Shown one piece after another: positions 1 to 5,353 of a DNA stretch of 5,353 bases. Location of the stretch: the IMG/VR virus record IMGVR_UViG_2657245634_000006. One strand, written 5' to 3'. Under the pieces are notes generated by a model. The model worked only from the letters and a program-made list of their open reading frames with translations, searched no databases and had not been told where the DNA came from. The first letter of the stretch is position 1. Each line of letters opens with the position of its first letter. The stretch is from a virus (lineage: Duplodnaviria; Heunggongvirae; Uroviricota; Caudoviricetes). A program made the position numbers and the translations under genes.

Positions 1-1085
1 TTGAATCCGTTCTCGACCTGACCGGTAAACTGAATGAGGTTGAGTTCCGTGCAGAAGCCTCCACGTCCGTCATCCCAGCCACGAATAAATTCACCGCGTA
101 AATCAGGCAATTTATTTGTCGGATAAACCTTTGCCAGTTCCGGGTATTCTTCAGCAGAAAAAGCCGCACCGTTGCATTTCAGCCAGCCAGTAGGCGGTGT
201 GGCTGAAGGCCACGGAACAGGCACACCAACGGGTAATGCCGAACCTTCTCCCAAACCAAGGTATACGAGAAGACCGGCAACATCCTTTCCACTCAAATGA
301 GTCAGCGTATTGTCCAGCGGTTGTTTACCTGCCAGCGCATTGTTAATGGTGGTGCTGAATTTCGGGTCATTGTTAATGGCCGCGGCAATTTCTTTCAGTG
401 TGTCCAGTGTGGCTGGCGCACCGTTAATCAGAGCGGTAATAGCGGCCTGAACAAACTCAGTGGTCGCAATCCGCGTGGTGTTATTTCCTGCGGCAGGCGT
501 CGGCGCTTTTGGTTCTCCGGTAAATGTCGGATTATGTTTCTGTGCATACTGGGTATGAGGATCCTGTGCGGCAATGTGGTTTCTCATCTGGTCATCCACA
601 TACAGCCTTAATTCCAGGACTTCATCATCCACGTATTTACGGGTCGCCAGTACCACCGACGGGTCGATTTTCAGCGTAATAGCTTCGGTATTCGTGACAA
701 CCAGAATCATGCGGATAGTCTGGGTACGACCACTGCCTTCCTGCAACTGCGGTTTGTACGTTTCCGGGCAGTTCGCCACCGCAATGAGTACGCCTTCTTC
801 ATCATAAAGCCCAATCTCACGGATCCAGAATCCGCCCTCGTTCTCAGGGATGATTTGCTCCGCAATAATCTGGCTCTGGTTGTTCGGGTCAACACTCAGA
901 AGATTCAGCGGCGCAATGCGTTTCTGGTTAATCAGTTTTGTCTGTGCCGGGTCTGGTGTCGGCAAGACACCATTCGCATCACCAACGGCCATTTGCGTCA
1001 GATTCAGCTTACTGCCGAGCATCGTCGCGTTAGCCAGCCGTGCTGCGCCCTGATTAGTCAGAATGGCGTAGTATTTCACTGTCAT
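1..1085 (-). CDS. H: Tail fiber protein, P2 gpH-like; N-terminal 361 codons, 3' end beyond window start
   Basis: Absent from the ORF track because no stop codon falls in the window. I translated the minus strand by hand in the frame set by ATG at 1085..1083; no TAA/TAG/TGA occurs down to position 3. The ATG overlaps the stop of gene I (ATGA at 1082-1085). Translation reads MTVKYYAILTNQGAARLANATMLGSKLNLTQMAVGDANGVLPTPD..., continues through NPTFTGEPKAPTPAAGNNTTRIATTEFVQAAITALINGAPATLDTLKEIAAAINNDPKF (tail-fiber repeat-like) and ends in-window with WPSATPPTGWLKCNGAAFSAEEYPELAKVYPTNKLPDLRGEFIRGWDDGRGG (tail-collar-like). Position after gene I and the family assignment rest on remembered P2 gene order and tail fiber architecture. 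Confidence 0.8.
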   Translation of the reverse strand, partial: MTVKYYAILTNQGAARLANATMLGSKLNLTQMAVGDANGVLPTPDPAQTKLINQKRIAPLNLLSVDPNNQSQIIAEQIIPENEGGFWIREIGLYDEEGVLIAVANCPETYKPQLQEGSGRTQTIRMILVVTNTEAITLKIDPSVVLATRKYVDDEVLELRLYVDDQMRNHIAAQDPHTQYAQKHNPTFTGEPKAPTPAAGNNTTRIATTEFVQAAITALINGAPATLDTLKEIAAAINNDPKFSTTINNALAGKQPLDNTLTHLSGKDVAGLLVYLGLGEGSALPVGVPVPWPSATPPTGWLKCNGAAFSAEEYPELAKVYPTNKLPDLRGEFIRGWDDGRGGFCTELNLIQFTGQVENGF

Positions 1086-1693
1086 GCGTTTACTCTCAGG
1101 TTATCAATTAAATGAATGGCCGAGGCCGGGAAATAATCCCCTCCGACAATAATGGCCTCCGGGGTGTAGGGATAAACCGTCAGGGCGTCGCCGTGATAGC
1201 ATCCCGCACCGGCAAAAATGTTGCCGGTTGTACTTAAACTGATAGCCAGTCCCGTCAGATGGCGGCTTGCCGGTTTTGCATCAGCAACGAGGCGCTCCAG
1301 CTCCTGATACATTTCCTCGGTAATACCCTGCTCAAGCACGCCAACAACGATGCGGAACGTCCCCGGCTCCTCGTTGAGCTGCCACCACTCCCTCACCTCA
1401 ATCAGATAGCCGAGCGGCTCCACCACACGCCGGATTGCGCCTATAGTGCCCTTATGGCAGTGAATGAAATACGCATCGCGGATAACAGCGCGTTTTGTCG
1501 CTTCCGGCCACTTATCATCCCAGCGGTCAACCGAAAATGACCACGCCAGCCACGGCAGCAGATTTGCCGGGCAGGTGTCCGGGTTCCACAGCTCACGAAT
1601 ACTGACCGGCGTTTTTTCAATTTCCGCACAGGCTTTTGCGGCGGCAACTTCAAGCGGTGATGAGCCGGTCGGCAGCAGTCGCGAATCACTCAT
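1082..1693 (-). CDS. I: Baseplate/tail protein I, P2 gpI-like
   Basis: ORF-track ORF of 203 aa starting MSDSRLLPTGSSPLEVAAAKACAEIEKTPVSIRELWNPD..., which I recognise as the P2 gpI family. ATG at 1693..1691 overlaps the stop of J by 8 nt (ATGAGTGA). It sits between J and H as in P2. Confidence 0.88.
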   Translation of the reverse strand: MSDSRLLPTGSSPLEVAAAKACAEIEKTPVSIRELWNPDTCPANLLPWLAWSFSVDRWDDKWPEATKRAVIRDAYFIHCHKGTIGAIRRVVEPLGYLIEVREWWQLNEEPGTFRIVVGVLEQGITEEMYQELERLVADAKPASRHLTGLAISLSTTGNIFAGAGCYHGDALTVYPYTPEAIIVGGDYFPASAIHLIDNLRVNA

Positions 1694-2594
1694 CCGAGCC
1701 TCCGGTCACGACGCGGTATTCGGTACAGAAAGACGCCTGCGTACTGTTGAGCACGATGTCGGCCAGTGGTGCAGCCAGTTCGACACGCTGCACACCTTCC
1801 ACATGCAAAGCGGCATAAATGGCAGACAGACGGATGTCGCGCCCCAGCCGGTGCTGTGCCGTGATGTACGCTTCCAGTTTTTTCACGGCGGCAGCGCGTA
1901 TGGGTTCGCTTTCGGGACCAGGGTAAAGGTAAAGCGTGGCGTTTATCTGGTATTCAACGATGGCGGCAGACTGCACGGTCACGCGGTCGGCCACCGGCCT
2001 GACGTCCTCGCCATTAAGGGCGTTACGCACCACAGCCAGCAGGTCTTCGGATGCGACACCGTTATTTTCACGTGACAGTACGGAGATGGTGACGCAGGCC
2101 GGAGACGGACTGGTGACAGAGATATCCGCGACACGCCCGTCGGCACTGCGACCATGATACTGATAGGCTCCCACCGACCCGGCGACGCTTAAACCTTCAA
2201 ACGCCTGCTGAATACGCAGACGATAATCGGTGTCAGACTCCATCACTGCCGGTGTCGGCGGGATGGTCGAATCATCTGCCGGGGTGATAGTCAGGCGCGT
2301 GGTGTTGTAATTGGCACCAATCACATCAAGGTCATTACCGGCAGCACAGGCCAGCATCACCGCCCGTGCGGCCTCATTCACACGCTGACGCCAGATAAGC
2401 TCACGATAAGCATTTTCCTCCAGCAGTTTGACGAGAGGCTCAGATTCCAGCGTCAGGGTACGGGCGACCGCCTCCTGCTGGTCTTCCGGGTAAAGGGAAA
2501 TCAGTGTCGCCTTGCGTTCGGCGAGAATGGTTTCAAAATCCAGCTCCTCGACCACATCCGGTGCGGGTAGCTGGTTCAGGTCGATAATCGGCAT
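1686..2594 (-). CDS. J: Baseplate assembly protein J, P2 gpJ-like
   Basis: 302 aa ORF starting MPIIDLNQLPAPDVVEELDFETILAERKATLISLYPEDQQEAVARTLTLESEPLVKLLEENAYRELIWRQR..., recognised as baseplate J family. ATG at 2594..2592 lies 4 nt downstream of the W stop codon (2599-2601 on plus). Synteny W-J-I. Confidence 0.9.
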   Translation of the reverse strand: MPIIDLNQLPAPDVVEELDFETILAERKATLISLYPEDQQEAVARTLTLESEPLVKLLEENAYRELIWRQRVNEAARAVMLACAAGNDLDVIGANYNTTRLTITPADDSTIPPTPAVMESDTDYRLRIQQAFEGLSVAGSVGAYQYHGRSADGRVADISVTSPSPACVTISVLSRENNGVASEDLLAVVRNALNGEDVRPVADRVTVQSAAIVEYQINATLYLYPGPESEPIRAAAVKKLEAYITAQHRLGRDIRLSAIYAALHVEGVQRVELAAPLADIVLNSTQASFCTEYRVVTGGSDE

Positions 2595-2598
2595 GGTT

Positions 2599-2946
2599 TC
2601 AACTCACAGGGATGGTTAACGAAAGTGGCTGGCCGGTGTCGTTGTGCTGGCCGGTTAACGTGACCGTCATTCGCCCGTCAAAACTGCGCTCAGTGGTGAC
2701 GGATGACAGGGTGACGCGGGGTTCCCATTTCAGCACCGCCATGTAACAGGCGACCTTAATCTGCAACTCAAGCGCCGGGGTCTGCGGCTGGTCAATCATT
2801 GATGCCAGCAACGAGCCGTAATCACGACGCATCACCCGTGAGCCGACCGGCGTGCGCAGGATATCGCCGATACTCTGGCTGATATGCTCAAGGTCAGTGA
2901 CAGTCAGGCCATCACTGCGATTCATTCCGAGATAACGCGCAGTCAT
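2599..2946 (-). CDS. W: Baseplate assembly protein W, P2 gpW-like (T4 gp25 family)
   Basis: 115 aa ORF starting MTARYLGMNRSDGLTVTDLEHISQSIGDILRTPVGSRVMRRDYGSLLASMID..., recognised as the GPW/gp25 baseplate wedge family. ATG at 2946..2944 overlaps the V stop (ATGA at 2943-2946). Confidence 0.9.
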   Translation of the reverse strand: MTARYLGMNRSDGLTVTDLEHISQSIGDILRTPVGSRVMRRDYGSLLASMIDQPQTPALELQIKVACYMAVLKWEPRVTLSSVTTERSFDGRMTVTLTGQHNDTGQPLSLTIPVS

Positions 2947-3578
2947 AGAGGTCCCCCGGTTGTGCCGCCGCTGTCGCCGGGGTGTTTATGGGTATGCAGT
3001 ACCTTACCGTTTGATGAGAGTTCACCGCCGGTGTGTTCAATGTTGCCGCGCATCGTCCCGCCCTTCTGCACTTCCAGCGTGCCGGTAGTCAGTTTGTTAG
3101 TGCAGACCACTTCCGGTGTGTCCAGGGTGACACGGGTTGACGCTTTCACCGTGACCACCGGTACCGTGGCAGTAACAGAATCAGAAGCCGTCACGCTGGC
3201 CGTTTTAATTCCGCTTACCGTGAGTGCACTGGTTTCGGGTTCATACTCAATCACCGCCCCGTCAGGGAAACGGATATGCAGGGCATCCGCCGACACAGAC
3301 GGCGAGGGGTTATCGCCGGAATAAATCCCCGGCAGAACGAACGCCGTGTCGAGTTCACCGCCCACGGCCAGAATCAGCACCTGCTCCCCCACGGAAGGTG
3401 CCCACCATGTGCGCGAACGACCGGCACGATGGGTCAGCCACTGAAGCCAGTCAGTGCACATGCCGCCGGTCTGCACACGGCAGCGACCGGCGTTAAGGTC
3501 GGTTTCGACGACTAGGCCGGTACGAATCATGTTGCGCAGTGCGCGCGCGAGTTCCTGAATATTTGCGAGAGTGTTCAT
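2943..3578 (-). CDS. V: Baseplate spike / assembly protein V, P2 gpV-like
   Basis: The ORF track gives 2943..3596 with a TTG start (plus 3594-3596 is caa). I place the start at the in-frame ATG at 3578..3576, giving 211 aa beginning MNTLANIQELARALRNMIRTGLVVETDLNAGRCRVQTGG..., which matches my memory of the P2 gpV N-terminus. No obvious Shine-Dalgarno precedes either start, so the start is not fully certain. Confidence 0.87.
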   Translation of the reverse strand: MNTLANIQELARALRNMIRTGLVVETDLNAGRCRVQTGGMCTDWLQWLTHRAGRSRTWWAPSVGEQVLILAVGGELDTAFVLPGIYSGDNPSPSVSADALHIRFPDGAVIEYEPETSALTVSGIKTASVTASDSVTATVPVVTVKASTRVTLDTPEVVCTNKLTTGTLEVQKGGTMRGNIEHTGGELSSNGKVLHTHKHPGDSGGTTGGPL

Positions 3579-3661
3579 GCATGTGAGATTGCACAATATA
3601 TAAAAGTTATGCTATCTGGATTCATTTGTAGAACTACCAGACAACATTCAAGGAGAGCGTA
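3579..3661. promoter_or_regulatory. Divergent intergenic control region between V (minus) and cargo ORF (plus); putative promoters, positions uncertain
   Basis: 83-bp AT-rich spacer. Plus strand has TATATATAAAAG (3597-3608) as a possible -10 for the cargo gene, with a weak -35 (TTCATG 3574-3579 or TTGCAC 3589-3594). On the minus strand TATATT (3600..3595) is a possible -10 for V, with no good -35. The dyad TTGTAGAACTACCAGACAA (3626-3644) has TGT-N11-ACA outer halves resembling the P2 late-promoter activator element (consensus TGT-N12-ACA). All are visual matches only. Confidence 0.3.
3650..3655 (+). promoter_or_regulatory. Shine-Dalgarno sequence (AAGGAG) of the cargo ORF
   Basis: AAGGAG with a 6-nt spacer to ATG at 3662, read directly from the sequence. 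Confidence 0.6.
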
Positions 3662-4447
3662 ATGGTCAGCTATAATGTGACTAATGTGTGGGGGCTAATC
3701 GTTTTTTTCCTTTGTAGCTTTGCAGTATTAGCATTTTTTAGCTTTGGTAAAAGTAACCTTATGAGGCTTATTGCACATTATTTCAATTTTGGATATTCAG
3801 ACAAAAAATTAAAAAGACTTGACCGCGAGTGGCGCGACATTCAACTATTTAAAATAATTAACGGAATCAATGTATCAGGCATTGAAAATGTGAGAATGAT
3901 ACAGCAGGGACTGATTGATGGAAAACTAAAAACATCGTATTTTTTCCTTACTCGCATCTGGGGTGACATAACAAAACCACCACACATAATTAAAACAATA
4001 ATTGTAATTCTGGCCAGTATTTTTTACATTCTTCTCGCATGTTACATACACAACGAACAATCCGTTATAGTAAGGGATGCCATAGGCATACCATATAAAA
4101 ACATGATGTACTATGTTTATAGTGACAAAGTTCTTTTATCCTTCAAAAATAAAGCAGTTGAATTTAATAAAACTTATAGCCTTGCCGATTGCAAGAGACT
4201 GCAAAACGTATTTATAAAAGACACACTTCCTGAGATCGCCTGCAATAAGCTCTTACAGCTAAACGAGGAGGACTCCGAATGGTTAAGTCAGGAGATTAAA
4301 GATAATAACAGTCACAAAAAAGCATTATTAATACTATCCCTCGTCTATTTCACTTCAGGTCTGGTTATATTCCTGTCATATACAAAATTCTTTTACGCCA
4401 ATAAGAAGGTTTTAGAATACAAAGCATCAAATAAAAATCACTCATAA
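3662..4447 (+). CDS. Hypothetical integral membrane protein with three predicted TM helices; AT-rich accessory (moron) gene at the S/V junction
   Basis: 261 aa ORF on the strand opposite to all tail genes. AAGGAG at 3650-3655 lies 6 nt upstream of ATG 3662. TAA stop at 4445-4447 is followed by a hairpin. Hydrophobic stretches at aa 9-28 (VWGLIVFFLCSFAVLAFFSF), aa 109-129 (IIKTIIVILASIFYILLACYI) and aa 221-240 (ALLILSLVYFTSGLVIFLSY). Codon usage is strongly A/T-biased, unlike the flanking genes. I recognise no catalytic or nucleotide-binding motif. Confidence 0.8.
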   Translation: MVSYNVTNVWGLIVFFLCSFAVLAFFSFGKSNLMRLIAHYFNFGYSDKKLKRLDREWRDIQLFKIINGINVSGIENVRMIQQGLIDGKLKTSYFFLTRIWGDITKPPHIIKTIIVILASIFYILLACYIHNEQSVIVRDAIGIPYKNMMYYVYSDKVLLSFKNKAVEFNKTYSLADCKRLQNVFIKDTLPEIACNKLLQLNEEDSEWLSQEIKDNNSHKKALLILSLVYFTSGLVIFLSYTKFFYANKKVLEYKASNKNHS

Positions 4448-4452
4448 ACCTC

Positions 4453-4489
4453 TAAACATTGAGCGACCAGCATGGCCGCTCAATGTTTA
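4453..4489. terminator. Candidate bidirectional intrinsic terminator hairpin between convergent cargo ORF and gene S
   Basis: Read directly: AAACATTGAGCG (4454-4465) and CGCTCAATGTTT (4477-4488) are perfect reverse complements, with 4453 T and 4489 A extending the stem to 13 bp. The 11-nt loop ACCAGCATGGC can pair further (CCA/TGG). It is followed on plus by TTTAATT and on minus by a T-rich but interrupted tract. It lies 5 nt after the cargo TAA stop and about 30 nt after the S stop. Confidence 0.5.
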
Positions 4490-4518
4490 ATTGCGCATCA
4501 GCCTCTGACTGGATAAAA

Positions 4519-4971
4519 CTAACGCTCAAGGTGAGCCAGGATAATCTCTTCAATCATCTGCACATCCTCACAGGTAAAGCCGAGCAGAGGACGCGCCGGA
4601 TAATCAATTTTCTTACCGTCTTTCCGGGTTTCTTCCGACAGACCGAACTGATGCACGCTGGCGATTTTCGGTGACTTCCCGCCGTAAAACTCCATTGATG
4701 CCTGTTCCGGGCTGGCGCGGATATGCAAAAAACGACTGGTGATAAGTTTCGCAAACATTTTTCGCTTAACACGACCAGTCTTTTTTCTGGCGCTCTGCTG
4801 CTGGCGTGGCGCGTAGGGTGTGCCGTCCGGGGCTTTCTGAGCCATCACCCGACGTTGCTGACTCTGCCGCAGACGTTTCGCCAGTTCGGCGCTCAGTCGC
4901 CGACGCCCTGACGGTGACAGCGATTCAGTCAGTCCGGTCAGCCGGTCTTCAAAACGCTTAAACTCATTCAT
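4519..4971 (-). CDS. S: Tail completion protein S, P2 gpS-like
   Basis: 150 aa ORF starting MNEFKRFEDRLTGLTESLSPSGRRRLSAELAKRLRQSQQRRVMAQKAPDGTPYAPRQQQSARKK..., recognised as the P2 gpS family. ATG at 4971..4969 overlaps the R stop by 8 nt (ATGAATGA). TAG stop at 4521..4519. Confidence 0.9.
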   Translation of the reverse strand: MNEFKRFEDRLTGLTESLSPSGRRRLSAELAKRLRQSQQRRVMAQKAPDGTPYAPRQQQSARKKTGRVKRKMFAKLITSRFLHIRASPEQASMEFYGGKSPKIASVHQFGLSEETRKDGKKIDYPARPLLGFTCEDVQMIEEIILAHLER

Positions 4972-5353
4972 CCCACTTGCTCACCAGTTCGCCATTGATA
5001 TAAAGCTCCACCGGGCGGGTGACCGGCTCCGGCGGCGTGGGTTCCGGGATATTCTTCACATGCAGCGCACCGTCAACCTCACTGACCAGCGTGCGCTCGG
5101 TCAGCATCAGGCTGATGCTGATATCAAAGCTGCTGTCATTGTTGATGTCTGCATAAAACGTGAAGCCCTTTTTCTGGCCTTCGTCGGTGGTCATGATGTC
5201 GGGCTGATTTTCCCGCAGCCACGCCAGCACCGGCACGATGAGCAGGTCAAAATCACCGGTAAAGTCGGTCACAATGACATTGAGCGTGTAACGCTTTTCA
5301 AATGACAGCGACGCCGCCAGTGTGGAGGCAATACTCCCGTTATCCACGAATAT
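4964..5353 (-). CDS. R: Tail completion protein R, P2 gpR-like; C-terminal part, 5' end probably beyond window end
   Basis: The ORF track gives 4964..5347 from a GTG (plus 5345-5347 is cac), but the frame stays open through the last two in-window codons (5348-5353). The protein (...VDNGSIASTLAASLSFEKRYTLNVIVTDFTGDFDLLIVPVLAWLRENQPDIMTTDEGQKKGFTFYADINND...) matches my memory of P2 gpR, which I recall as longer than 127 aa. TGA stop at 4966..4964. Confidence 0.8.
   Translation of the reverse strand: MFVDNGSIASTLAASLSFEKRYTLNVIVTDFTGDFDLLIVPVLAWLRENQPDIMTTDEGQKKGFTFYADINNDSSFDISISLMLTERTLVSEVDGALHVKNIPEPTPPEPVTRPVELYINGELVSKWDE

What the first reader, a model, noticed from the sequence alone, without database searches (positions are those of the whole stretch)
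3662..4447. Oppositely oriented, AT-rich membrane-protein gene at the S/V junction of a P2-like tail module: candidate defence or exclusion cargo
Every other gene in the window is a recognisable P2-type tail or baseplate gene on the minus strand with host-like GC and overlapping start/stop codons. This 261-aa ORF is the single exception: plus strand, its own strong RBS, its own hairpin, about one-third GC by spot count, three predicted TM segments and no motif I recognise. From established knowledge, P2 carries a non-essential ORF (orf30) at this same S-V junction, and non-structural cargo in P2-like phages is a known home for anti-phage functions (P2 old and tin are the classic examples, at other loci). 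Compact membrane proteins are a common architecture for superinfection exclusion and abortive-infection effectors. The function is inference; I cannot tell from sequence whether this is an orf30 homologue or an unrelated cargo.
Basis: partly seen in the sequence, partly recalled or inferred. Interest (0 to 1): 0.85.

Follow-up and report, generated by a model that had tools for sequence, protein, structure and literature searches.

The report
Phage P2 orf30 membrane-protein gene
The flagged gene is orf30 of phage P2, a dispensable gene known since the 1990s whose function is still unknown; it encodes a fast-evolving inner-membrane protein that has sat at this tail-gene junction in P2-like phages of many enteric bacteria and may block entry of rival phages.

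Summary
A 261-aa plus-strand ORF (3662-4447) has GC 0.34 against 0.56 in the rest of the window. It has a strong RBS, three TM segments and a stable hairpin, and lies between P2-type genes V and S. It is not new: it is P2 orf30 itself (99.6% aa identity), annotated "nonessential" and described in the literature as an insertion of unknown function.

What I add:
- In 5,426 complete E. coli genomes the S-V junction is empty (66 bp) in at least 1,027 records. It holds orf30 at 482 places and two other cargos at 79 and 2. It is a low-diversity slot, not a hypervariable hotspot.
- Homologues only 22-27% identical occupy the same slot and orientation in P2-like prophages of Yersinia, Pectobacterium, Cronobacter and Sodalis. 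All are AT-rich.
- The gene is under purifying selection but evolves 4-8 times faster than its neighbours, mostly in TM helices.
- Predicted topology is N-out/C-in, with a conserved periplasmic Cys pair.
- Nothing matches in PADLOC, NCBIfam, PDB or BFVD; there is only a weak link to Pfam DUF6216.

The best guess is an Imm-like superinfection-exclusion protein (about 0.35). This is inferred, not shown.

The parts
3662..4447 (+). orf30 coding sequence (261 aa plus stop); PHROG 2407; 99.6% identical to P2 Orf30 (AAD03281.1)
3651..3656 (+). Shine-Dalgarno AAGGAG, 5 nt upstream of the ATG; comparable AAGGAG/AAGGAA sites precede several distant homologues
3579..3661 (.). 83-bp divergent V-orf30 intergenic region; holds the pV late promoter (minus strand); any orf30 promoter must overlap it, but none is recognisable
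3620..3647 (-). Ogr/delta activator binding site of the pV late promoter, as annotated in the P2 record; lies directly upstream of the orf30 RBS
   Evidence: locus 3024-3051 plus 596 gives window coordinates
4453..4489 (.). Stable inverted repeat between the convergent orf30 and S genes; annotated in P2 as the rho-independent terminator of the O operon; folds on both strands
3579..4511 (.). AT-rich cassette that replaces the 66-bp S-V intergenic region of empty-site relatives; homology to empty sites stops at the V start codon and resumes about 7 nt before the S stop codon
3686..3748 (+). TM1 (residues 9-29); N-terminus before it has no K/R in all 25 family members (predicted periplasmic); most variable part among E. 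coli alleles (omega about 1.2)
3749..3982 (+). Predicted cytoplasmic helical domain (residues 30-107), basic, with family motif D-x-Q-L-F/Y-R/K...G-I/V-N-V...D-A; omega 0.38
3983..4048 (+). TM2 (residues 108-129)
4049..4318 (+). Predicted periplasmic alpha/beta domain (residues 130-219; four strands plus helices) with Cys177 and Cys194 conserved across the family (probable disulfide); omega 0.24
4319..4444 (+). TM3 (residues 220-241; omega about 2 on few changes) and basic cytoplasmic tail (242-261)
2943..3578 (-). Flank: gpV baseplate spike gene (P2 start at ATG 3578; the mechanical ORF extends to TTG 3596)
4519..4971 (-). Flank: gpS tail completion gene

Best explanation
Shown: the feature is phage P2's orf30, a self-contained single-gene AT-rich cassette (a 'moron') between the tail-completion gene S and the baseplate-spike gene V, read against the late operons. 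It encodes a 30-kDa inner-membrane protein with three TM helices. The topology is predicted, not measured: N-terminus out, an 80-aa basic helical domain in the cytoplasm, a 90-aa alpha/beta domain with a conserved Cys pair in the periplasm, and a basic C-tail in the cytoplasm. The gene is dispensable for phage growth and selectively maintained. It evolves much faster than its neighbours and is swapped between backbones. The family has held this slot and orientation across P2-like phages of Enterobacterales. Inferred: it is most likely a superinfection-exclusion (entry-immunity) protein. Made in the lysogen's inner membrane, it would bind the membrane-inserting part of an incoming phage's (or tailocin's) genome-delivery apparatus, most plausibly the tape-measure or ejection proteins. 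That would block channel formation or DNA translocation, as T4 Imm and HK97 gp15 do and as pore-forming-colicin immunity proteins do. Different alleles would recognise different invaders. Identity and anatomy are near certain; the stated confidence applies to the mechanism.
For: Identity: 99.5% DNA and 99.6% protein identity to P2 orf30, same position and orientation. Cassette: GC 0.34 against 0.56; it replaces a 66-bp empty junction. Dispensable: at least 1,027 empty junctions against 482 occupied among about 1,800 S/V places in E. coli; absent from W-phi and L-413C (PMC2771037). Functional gene: 9 of 9 alleles keep an intact 786-bp frame at up to 20% amino-acid divergence, with omega 0.24-0.38 in the soluble domains. 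Signs of an arms race: dN is 4-8 times that of V, S and W in the same genome pairs, and whole-gene omega is 0.43-0.55 against 0.07-0.26. TM1 has omega about 1.2 and TM3 about 2. Across genera Orf30 is 22-27% identical while J is 78-80% and V 71-81%. Alleles are uncoupled from the backbone. Two paralogues only 26% identical sit in tandem in L030. Host benefit: the gene is kept beside decayed P2 remnants and as solitary AT-rich chromosomal islands. Single-gene system: it is alone in the slot in E. coli, Yersinia, Sodalis and others. Placement fits an entry blocker: inner membrane with a periplasmic domain, positive-inside rule met in 25 of 25 members, Cys pair conserved, and a confident model (pLDDT 88). 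Precedent: T4 Imm is an inner-membrane protein that binds the tape-measure protein to stop genome translocation (bioRxiv 10.64898/2026.03.06.709160). Slot context: another occupant of the same slot weakly resembles the Lamassu effector LmuA.
Confidence: 0.35

Rival explanations
1. Abortive-infection effector. Orf30 sits idle in the inner membrane. Its conserved cytoplasmic domain senses a phage product, and the protein then oligomerises to depolarise or permeabilise the membrane, killing the infected cell before progeny form (RexB-like logic in a single polypeptide).
For: It is an AT-rich, horizontally moved, single-gene membrane protein carried by a prophage. The most constrained part is the cytoplasmic domain, with a family-wide motif, as expected of a sensor or oligomerisation module. 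Another occupant of the slot looks like a defence nuclease. P2 accessory loci are known homes of abortive systems (PMC9122126; PMC13586616).
Against: There is no PADLOC match. Three TM helices with no amphipathic pore signature is a weak basis for a pore. The conserved disulfide-type periplasmic domain has no obvious role in a cytoplasm-triggered suicide switch. Variation concentrated in TM helices rather than in the putative sensor domain fits partner recognition within the membrane better.
Confidence: 0.15
2. Lysogenic-conversion factor unrelated to phage defence. The protein is an envelope protein that changes host physiology, for example stress or antimicrobial tolerance, envelope signalling, colonisation, or immunity to a membrane-targeting bacterial toxin. 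It benefits the lysogen.
For: It has moron architecture. It is retained in chromosomes without any phage, in Serratia and Enterobacter. The family is restricted to Enterobacterales. A membrane-spanning protein with both periplasmic and cytoplasmic domains resembles a sensor or adaptor. Tandem divergent paralogues and fast-evolving TM helices would also fit an immunity protein against membrane-acting toxins.
Against: There is no similarity to any known virulence, signalling or immunity family. The only colicin-immunity hit is one member to PF17500 at E 0.11, which is noise. The tight, cross-genus association with one junction of P2-like phages is more than a generic host-fitness gene needs. No neighbouring toxin or partner gene is conserved.
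Confidence: 0.2
3. Accessory function in the phage's own cycle. The protein is a non-essential inner-membrane factor that tunes P2's infection, lysis timing, tail or baseplate handling at the membrane, or release. It might protect the producing cell from re-adsorbing progeny, counter a host membrane defence, or interfere with the satellite P4.
For: The family has kept the same junction next to the spike gene V, and the same orientation, in phages whose Orf30 proteins are only about 22% identical. The E. coli slot is low in diversity, unlike real cargo hotspots. The RBS abuts the Ogr/delta activator site of pV, so expression could be tied to the late switch. Lysis genes lie just upstream of R and S.
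Against: About two thirds of very close relatives do without it. It is read against both late operons and has no Ogr-type promoter geometry of its own: the dyad centre sits at about -27 relative to the ATG. It persists after prophages decay and in chromosomes with no phage. It stays AT-rich (GC3 0.30-0.36) in every backbone, which is atypical of integrated phage functions.
Confidence: 0.15
4. Functionless passenger: a decaying or selfish insertion with no current role.
For: No function is known after about 30 years. No promoter is recognisable. It is absent from most close relatives.
Against: The frame is intact and of identical length in all 9 diverged alleles, and 461 of 464 E. coli genomes carry at least 80% of it. 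Omega is 0.24-0.38 in the soluble domains. The architecture, the motifs and the Cys pair are conserved down to about 20% identity across genera. The AF2 model is confident when built from the family alignment.
Confidence: 0.05

Closest known systems
Bacteriophage P2 orf30 (AAD03281.1; 'uncharacterized 30.4 kDa protein'; PHROG 2407)
   Same: It is the same gene: 99.5% DNA and 99.6% protein identity, the same S-V position and the same antiparallel orientation, with the same flanking Ogr site and terminator.
   Different: The host backbone is not reference P2. It is 96.3% identical over 1257-5353 and has an unrelated gpI C-terminus and gpH region at 1-1256. It is 100% identical to a prophage of E. 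coli O111:H21 strain 15A over V, orf30 and S.
T4 Imm and HK97 gp15 (inner-membrane superinfection-exclusion proteins that act on the tape-measure protein)
   Same: Both are phage-encoded, dispensable, small inner-membrane proteins. Imm's N-terminus faces the periplasm, as predicted here. The mechanism proposed for Orf30 copies theirs.
   Different: There is no detectable sequence or fold similarity. Orf30 is three times larger than Imm (261 aa against 83) and has two folded soluble domains, one on each side of the membrane. Imm is an early lytic gene of a virulent phage, whereas Orf30 sits in a temperate phage. No exclusion phenotype is known for Orf30.
Pore-forming-colicin immunity proteins (E1-type with 3 TM, A-type with 4 TM)
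   Same: From general knowledge, these are inner-membrane proteins with 3-4 TM helices, encoded in the opposite direction to the killing gene they neighbour. They are AT-rich and recognise their target through helix-helix contacts in the membrane. That parallels Orf30's orientation next to the tail-spike operon and its variable TM helices.
   Different: There is no homology: a single family member hits PF17500 at E 0.11. Colicin immunity proteins are about 110-180 aa and lack large soluble domains.
P2 accessory defence genes old, tin and fun(Z), and the P2 'hotspots' of Rousset et al. 2022
   Same: These are also non-essential, AT-rich cargo in a P2-like phage, placed between conserved genes and present or absent among close relatives (PMC9122126; PMC3091744).
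   Different: The locus is different. Those hotspots hold hundreds to thousands of gene arrangements, whereas the S-V slot in E. coli has about four states and is dominated by one family. Orf30 has no demonstrated anti-phage activity and no PADLOC model.
Pfam DUF6216 (PF19723), a family of unknown function
   Same: 10 of 25 orf30-family members give near-full-length weak matches. One (Sodalis, P0030) scores 28.9 bits against the 27.3-bit cutoff over profile positions 10-265 of 270.
   Different: P2 Orf30 itself gives no match even at E 10. DUF6216 carries no functional information.

Membership tests
P2 orf30 / PHROG 2407 | Near-identical sequence over the full length | tested here: met
   99.5% over 922 bp, 99.6% over 261 aa, phrog_2407 at E 5.5e-149 over residues 1-261 of 261
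P2 orf30 / PHROG 2407 | Located between S and V and read opposite to them | tested here: met
   Window ORFs with Pfam assignments and the P2 annotation
Moron (Hendrix-type independent cassette in a phage operon) | Inserted between two genes that are adjacent in related phages | tested here: met
   A 66-bp S-V gap in L003 and L005 and in at least 1,027 E. coli records
Moron (Hendrix-type independent cassette in a phage operon) | Base composition distinct from the surrounding genome | tested here: met
   GC 0.337 against 0.558; also 0.32-0.35 in every lineage against 0.48-0.61
Moron (Hendrix-type independent cassette in a phage operon) | Own terminator | tested here: met
   Hairpin at 4453-4489 is stable on the plus strand (z -4.8), although shared with the O operon
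Moron (Hendrix-type independent cassette in a phage operon) | Own promoter | tested here: inconclusive
   No sigma-70 consensus match upstream (best 6 of 12); at most 8-9 of 12 in other lineages
Moron (Hendrix-type independent cassette in a phage operon) | Expressed from the repressed prophage | not testable with these tools
   Needs RNA-seq or 5'-RACE of a P2 lysogen
Known anti-phage defence systems (PADLOC-DB v2) | Match to a defence-protein HMM | tested here: not met
   0 families at E up to 10
Superinfection-exclusion proteins (T4 Imm, HK97 gp15, P22 SieA) | Sequence or fold homology to a known member | tested here: not met
Superinfection-exclusion proteins (T4 Imm, HK97 gp15, P22 SieA) | Phage-encoded, dispensable, located in the cytoplasmic membrane | tested here: met
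   Dispensable. Three TM segments and the positive-inside rule hold in 25 of 25 members; this is a prediction, not a localisation experiment
Superinfection-exclusion proteins (T4 Imm, HK97 gp15, P22 SieA) | Blocks DNA entry of a superinfecting phage without killing the cell | not testable with these tools
   Needs plating-efficiency, adsorption, DNA-entry and survival assays
P2 cargo 'hotspot' in the sense of Rousset et al. 2022 | High turnover and many different gene arrangements between two conserved genes | tested here: not met
   E. coli: empty in at least 1,027 records, orf30 at 482 places, one other cargo at 79, another at 2. Extra genes do occur in the slot in Pectobacterium and Cronobacter, and other genes in Burkholderia and phi-CTX phages by the literature
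Pfam DUF6216 (PF19723) | Score at or above the gathering threshold (27.3 bits) | tested here: not met
   P2 Orf30: no hit. Family: 10 of 25 weak hits, with only P0030 above the cutoff at 28.9 bits. A distant relationship of the family to DUF6216 is likely but not established for this protein
   Present at about 27% of S/V places in E. coli (482 of about 1,800); absent from W-phi and L-413C

The most novel reading that the evidence does not exclude
Orf30 founds a previously unrecognised, Enterobacterales-wide family of P2-phage-borne inner-membrane immunity proteins, distantly related to DUF6216. These proteins would block genome delivery by contractile-tailed phages or tailocins through helix-helix contacts in the membrane with the invader's tape-measure or ejection proteins. 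Rapidly diversifying alleles, sometimes stacked in tandem, would set the specificity. The persistent AT-richness would keep the gene under H-NS-type control. That would make the S-V junction a dedicated 'immunity slot' coupled to the tail module, rather than a generic cargo hotspot.
Probability: 0.25. Interest if true: 0.65.

Novelty: already known. Interest (0 to 1): 0.4.

Why it matters
P2 is the type phage of a very large family of prophages, found in about 29% of complete E. coli genomes here. Nearly all P2 genes have assigned roles; orf30 is one of the few orphans. If it is an entry-immunity protein, it adds a fourth exclusion function to P2 besides old, tin and fun(Z). It would also define a new single-gene defence family that current tools (PADLOC and similar) miss. 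And it would give a temperate-phage counterpart to T4 Imm for studying how contractile-tail phages cross the inner membrane. The comparative results are new as far as the searchable literature shows, and they turn an old annotation into specific cheap experiments: same slot and orientation at about 22% identity across genera, persistent AT-richness, and variation focused in TM helices. If no phenotype appears, the gene remains an ordinary moron of unknown role.

Tried and rejected
- Family libraries: Pfam, NCBIfam and PADLOC gave nothing for P2 Orf30. PHROGs only returns its own unknown-function family.
- Solved structures: the PDB sequence profile search gave noise only.
- Related loci: the search for related loci with the 25-member alignment failed for lack of a conserved stretch. 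The closer subset found only three Enterobacter loci.
- Promoter: the tool scan and my own relaxed scan found no convincing site for orf30. A perfect TATAAT at 3671-3676 lies inside the ORF and was rejected as its promoter.
- Bidirectional Ogr activation: considered and rejected. The dyad centre (about 3635) lies too close to the ATG (3662) for a -55 geometry.
- RNA elements: Rfam found none.
- N-terminus as a cleavable signal peptide: rejected, because there is no basic n-region in any of 25 members.
- Pseudogene or functionless passenger: rejected on selection data.
- Literature: no functional study of orf30 was found. The Christie and Calendar P2 review is not held. The H-NS preprint that mentions DUF6216 could not be opened.
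Full report
1. The observation

- The ORF list gives 3662..4447 on the plus strand, 261 aa, starting with ATG.
- Its GC is 0.337 (GC3 0.355), against 0.558 for the rest of the window. The sliding profile falls from about 0.60 to about 0.34 exactly over this stretch.
- AAGGAG lies at 3651-3656, 5 nt before the ATG.
- A 19-residue Kyte-Doolittle scan gives three hydrophobic segments, at about residues 9-29, 108-129 and 220-241.
- The inverted repeat at 4453-4489 folds at -23.3 kcal/mol on the plus strand and -32.1 on the minus strand (z -4.8 and -4.7). None of 200 shuffles folds as well.
- All other long ORFs are minus-strand P2 tail and baseplate genes by Pfam: I, J, W, V, S and R.

Two corrections apply. 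The hairpin is the element that the P2 record annotates as the terminator of the convergent O operon, so it is shared. No promoter of the gene's own can be recognised.

2. What it is

Megablast of 3597-4518 finds phage P2 (AF063097, NC_001895) at 99.5% over all 922 bases, under the features "orf30: Orf30", "terminator" and "activator binding site; activation of pV promoter". The P2 record calls orf30 "nonessential", and the protein is 99.6% identical. So this is not an orf30 homologue or an unrelated cargo; it is orf30.

The window as a whole is a P2-like prophage rather than reference P2:
- Positions 1257-5353 are 96.3% identical to P2.
- Positions 1-1256 (gpI C-terminus and gpH) are unrelated at the DNA level.
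- V, orf30 and S are 100% identical to a prophage of E. coli O111:H21 strain 15A.

The literature already describes the gene. Lavigne et al. [quoted passage not shown] Lynch et al. 2010 list Orf30 as "unknown" and name the orf30 position, with the TO and Z regions, as the places where P2-like phages carry horizontally acquired genes (PMC3091744). A Burkholderia phage has a DNA methylase there (PMC13366799). I found no paper that assigns a function.

3. The slot in E. coli

Among 5,426 complete genomes, close copies of S occur at 1,803 places in 1,576 genomes and close copies of V at 1,810 places. The states of the junction are:

| State of the S-V junction | Count |
|---|---|
| Empty (66 bp) | at least 1,027 records |
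| orf30 | 482 places in 464 genomes, 461 with at least 80% of the gene |
| 246-aa soluble Cys-rich protein (L014), GC 0.36, same strand as the tail genes | 79 places |
| 483-aa protein (L015), GC 0.33, weak PADLOC match to LmuA (E 1.2e-5) | 2 genomes |

Aligning occupied and empty junctions shows that homology stops exactly at the V start codon and resumes about 7 nt before the S stop. The whole intergenic region, including the pV promoter region, differs between the two states. The slot is therefore polymorphic but poor in diversity, with orf30 in about 86% of occupied slots. This contrasts with the gpA-gpQ hotspot, where 1,650 arrangements were reported (PMC9122126).

4. The family and where it lives

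- **Size.** The word-indexed search found only four clusters at 80-98% identity and one 39% relative. The exhaustive profile search found 44 representatives at the 50% level, about 25 of them full length at 250-270 aa.
- **Taxonomy.** All named members come from Enterobacterales: Escherichia, Enterobacter, Serratia, Pectobacterium, Yersinia, Sodalis and Cronobacter. All are annotated "hypothetical".
- **Contexts in the slot.** Members from Yersinia (P0026), Pectobacterium (P0023), Cronobacter (P0036), Sodalis (P0030) and two unnamed lineages (P0008, P0047) lie between V and S of P2-like prophages, always antiparallel and next to the V start. P0021 lies beside a decayed V-W-J remnant. It is followed by a second family member, P0044, only 26% identical to it, so the two form a tandem pair. 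The Pectobacterium and Cronobacter slots hold extra genes: an ORF6N protein with two small ORFs, and a 180-aa protein with DUF7480.
- **Contexts outside the slot.** Serratia members sit in a small island, ybjL-ASCH-orf30-like-ecotin. That island has no prophage in L010. It abuts an intact P2-like prophage in L006, and abuts terminase, portal and gpR fragments in L008. An Enterobacter member is a solitary AT-rich island (GC 0.36 against about 0.6) between a DsbD/ECF-sigma cluster and an MCP gene.
- **Homology check.** Pairwise tblastn between the Yersinia protein and P2 orf30 is significant on its own (E about 1e-7).
- **Pfam link.** Ten of 25 members weakly match Pfam DUF6216, one of them above the gathering score. 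P2 Orf30 does not match.

5. Evolutionary behaviour

In the Yersinia, Pectobacterium and Cronobacter prophages, identity to P2 is 78-80% for J, 71-81% for V, 59-71% for W and 47-48% for S, but only 22-27% for Orf30. The gene has GC 0.32-0.35 and GC3 0.30-0.36 in every lineage, whatever the backbone GC of 0.48-0.61.

Within the P2 group, nine alleles all keep a 786-bp frame. Nei-Gojobori estimates for pairs with P2 are:

| Gene | dN | omega |
|---|---|---|
| orf30 | 0.06-0.10 | 0.43-0.55 |
| V | about 0.02 | 0.12-0.26 |
| S | about 0.01 | 0.07-0.18 |
| W | 0.01 or less | 0-0.24 |

By region, omega is 1.24 for the N-terminus plus TM1, 0.38 for the cytoplasmic domain, 0.57 for TM2, 0.24 for the periplasmic domain, 2.0 for TM3 and 0.24 for the tail. 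The values above 1 rest on few changes, summed over non-independent pairs of recombining alleles, so they are a lead and not a demonstration.

Alleles are uncoupled from the backbone. In this window the cassette is 99-100% identical to P2 while the flanks are 93-98%. In strain SMS-3-5 the flanks are 96-99% identical at the protein level but Orf30 is 84.7%.

6. The protein

With the 25-sequence alignment, AlphaFold2 gives pLDDT 88.2 and pTM 0.78. The model has a long TM1 helix (6-40), cytoplasmic helices at 48-67, 74-86 and 91-94, and TM2 (109-134). A four-stranded sheet (141-173) with helices at 174-179 and 189-198 follows, and then one long helix (202-260) that contains TM3.

Topology evidence across all 25 members:
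- The N-terminal stub has no K/R in any member.
- Loop 1 carries net +6.5 charges per 100 aa, loop 2 carries -0.5 and the C-tail +8.8.
- Cys194 is invariant. Cys177 is present in 22 of 25 members at the same alignment column and 3 columns away in the other three.

This supports N-out/C-in with a disulfide-bonded periplasmic domain, as a prediction. The cytoplasmic domain carries the family motif D-x-Q-L-F/Y-R/K...G-I/V-N-V...D-A. No fold relative was found; see section 8.

7. Mechanism

**Shown:**
- The gene is a dispensable, selectively maintained, fast-evolving, recombining single-gene cassette.
- It encodes a membrane protein predicted to span the inner membrane, with folded domains on both sides.
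- It is tied to one junction of P2-like phages and survives prophage decay.

**Inferred (best explanation, about 0.35).** The protein is an entry-immunity protein in the manner of T4 Imm. Imm is an inner-membrane protein with its N-terminus in the periplasm. It binds the tape-measure protein and prevents the genome-translocation conduit from forming. [quoted passage not shown] This model accounts for six features:
- the single-gene organisation;
- the membrane location with a periplasmic domain;
- variation focused in the membrane helices;
- the allele diversity and the tandem paralogues;
- the host-beneficial retention;
- the defence-like character of another occupant of the slot.

**Against it:** there is no homology to any exclusion protein, no recognisable promoter, and, to my knowledge, no reported phenotype despite long study of P2.

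**Rivals:**
- An abortive-infection membrane effector (0.15).
- A conversion factor unrelated to phages, or immunity to a bacterial membrane toxin (0.20).
- An accessory role in P2's own cycle (0.15), favoured by the cross-genus fidelity to the slot next to V and by the Ogr site abutting the RBS.
- No function (0.05).

8. Comparison with what is known, and novelty

As a sequence feature this is already known. It fails the tests for membership of every functional family I could check:
- PADLOC: none.
- Known exclusion proteins: no sequence or fold match.
- Colicin immunity proteins: noise.
- DUF6216: not met by this protein.

It meets most criteria of a moron. The promoter is the exception: it could not be recognised, and expression from the prophage cannot be tested with these tools.

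As far as the accessible literature shows, the following are new:
- the E. coli census;
- the finding that one protein family has kept this slot and orientation across enterobacterial P2-like phages while diverging to about 22% identity and staying AT-rich;
- the chromosomal and tandem copies;
- the topology and Cys-pair model;
- the selection pattern.

One unread lead remains. A 2026 preprint on H-NS silencing of antiviral loci mentions DUF6216 once and P2-like elements four times, but never orf30. Its text could not be opened.

9. Verdict

Interest is 0.4: a known orphan gene of a model phage, now with a specific and cheaply testable hypothesis.

Noticed in passing
window 1-1256: The left end (gpI C-terminus and the start of gpH, minus strand) has no DNA similarity to reference P2, whereas 1257-5353 is 96.3% identical. 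gpI here is 203 aa (1082-1693) against 176 aa in P2. This looks like a tail-fibre or host-range module swap with its breakpoint inside gene I.
   Followed up: partly
window 3576-3596: The mechanical ORF for gpV starts at TTG 3596, but the P2 record starts V at ATG 3578 and places the V-operon transcription start at that same nucleotide. That would make the V message leaderless or nearly so.
   Followed up: no
L014 3678-4418 (-), E. coli VG48B2: Alternative cargo in the S-V slot: a 246-aa soluble protein, GC 0.36, with C-x2-C...E-H...C-x2-C-N spacing reminiscent of an HNH or zinc-ribbon nuclease. It has no Pfam, NCBIfam or PADLOC hit. It is present in 77 complete E. coli genomes and is co-oriented with the tail genes.
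   Followed up: partly
L015 3726-5177 (+), E. coli AST215: Second alternative cargo: a 483-aa protein, GC 0.33, with a weak PADLOC match to the Lamassu effector LmuA (E 1.2e-5) and a D...Q-C-K stretch that looks like a PD-(D/E)xK nuclease motif. It occurs in only 2 genomes. One RefSeq record labels it 'PCRF domain-containing protein'.
   Followed up: partly
L030 6001-7658: Two orf30-family genes only 26% identical (P0021 and P0044) lie in tandem beside a decayed V-W-J fragment of a P2-like prophage, inside otherwise chromosomal DNA.
   Followed up: partly
L006, L008, L010 (Serratia and relatives), gene at about 7001-7760: An orf30-like gene sits in a small island between ybjL and ecotin, often preceded by an ASCH-domain gene. 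The same site is a P2-like prophage integration site in L006 and holds terminase, portal and gpR fragments in L008. This suggests the gene was kept after the prophage was lost.
   Followed up: partly
L020 7800-9440 and L022 5965-6899: In Pectobacterium the S-V slot also holds an ORF6N-domain gene and two small ORFs. In Cronobacter it also holds a 180-aa protein and a DUF7480 protein. The slot can therefore grow into a multi-gene island outside E. coli.
   Followed up: no
window 3579-3650 compared with L003 2935-3000 and L016 6882-6950: The pV promoter region of orf30-bearing P2 is AT-rich and unlike that of empty-site E. coli prophages. The Yersinia orf30-bearing prophage keeps the 'empty-type' promoter sequence. 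All share only a distal ...CACAAC/CAGACAAC element about 65-70 nt upstream of V, probably one half of the Ogr dyad.
   Followed up: partly
window 3671-3676 and 3777-4353: A perfect TATAAT lies just inside the orf30 coding sequence, and six promoter-like sites (four of them antisense) lie within the gene (6 found against 3.6 expected). This is typical of AT-rich DNA that H-NS would be expected to silence.
   Followed up: no
literature: bioRxiv 10.64898/2026.09.05.749240: A 2026 preprint, 'H-NS silences antiviral immunity through 3D chromatin compaction', mentions DUF6216 once, 'transmembrane' once and 'P2-like' four times, but not orf30. The text could not be retrieved, so its relevance to this family is unknown.
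   Followed up: partly
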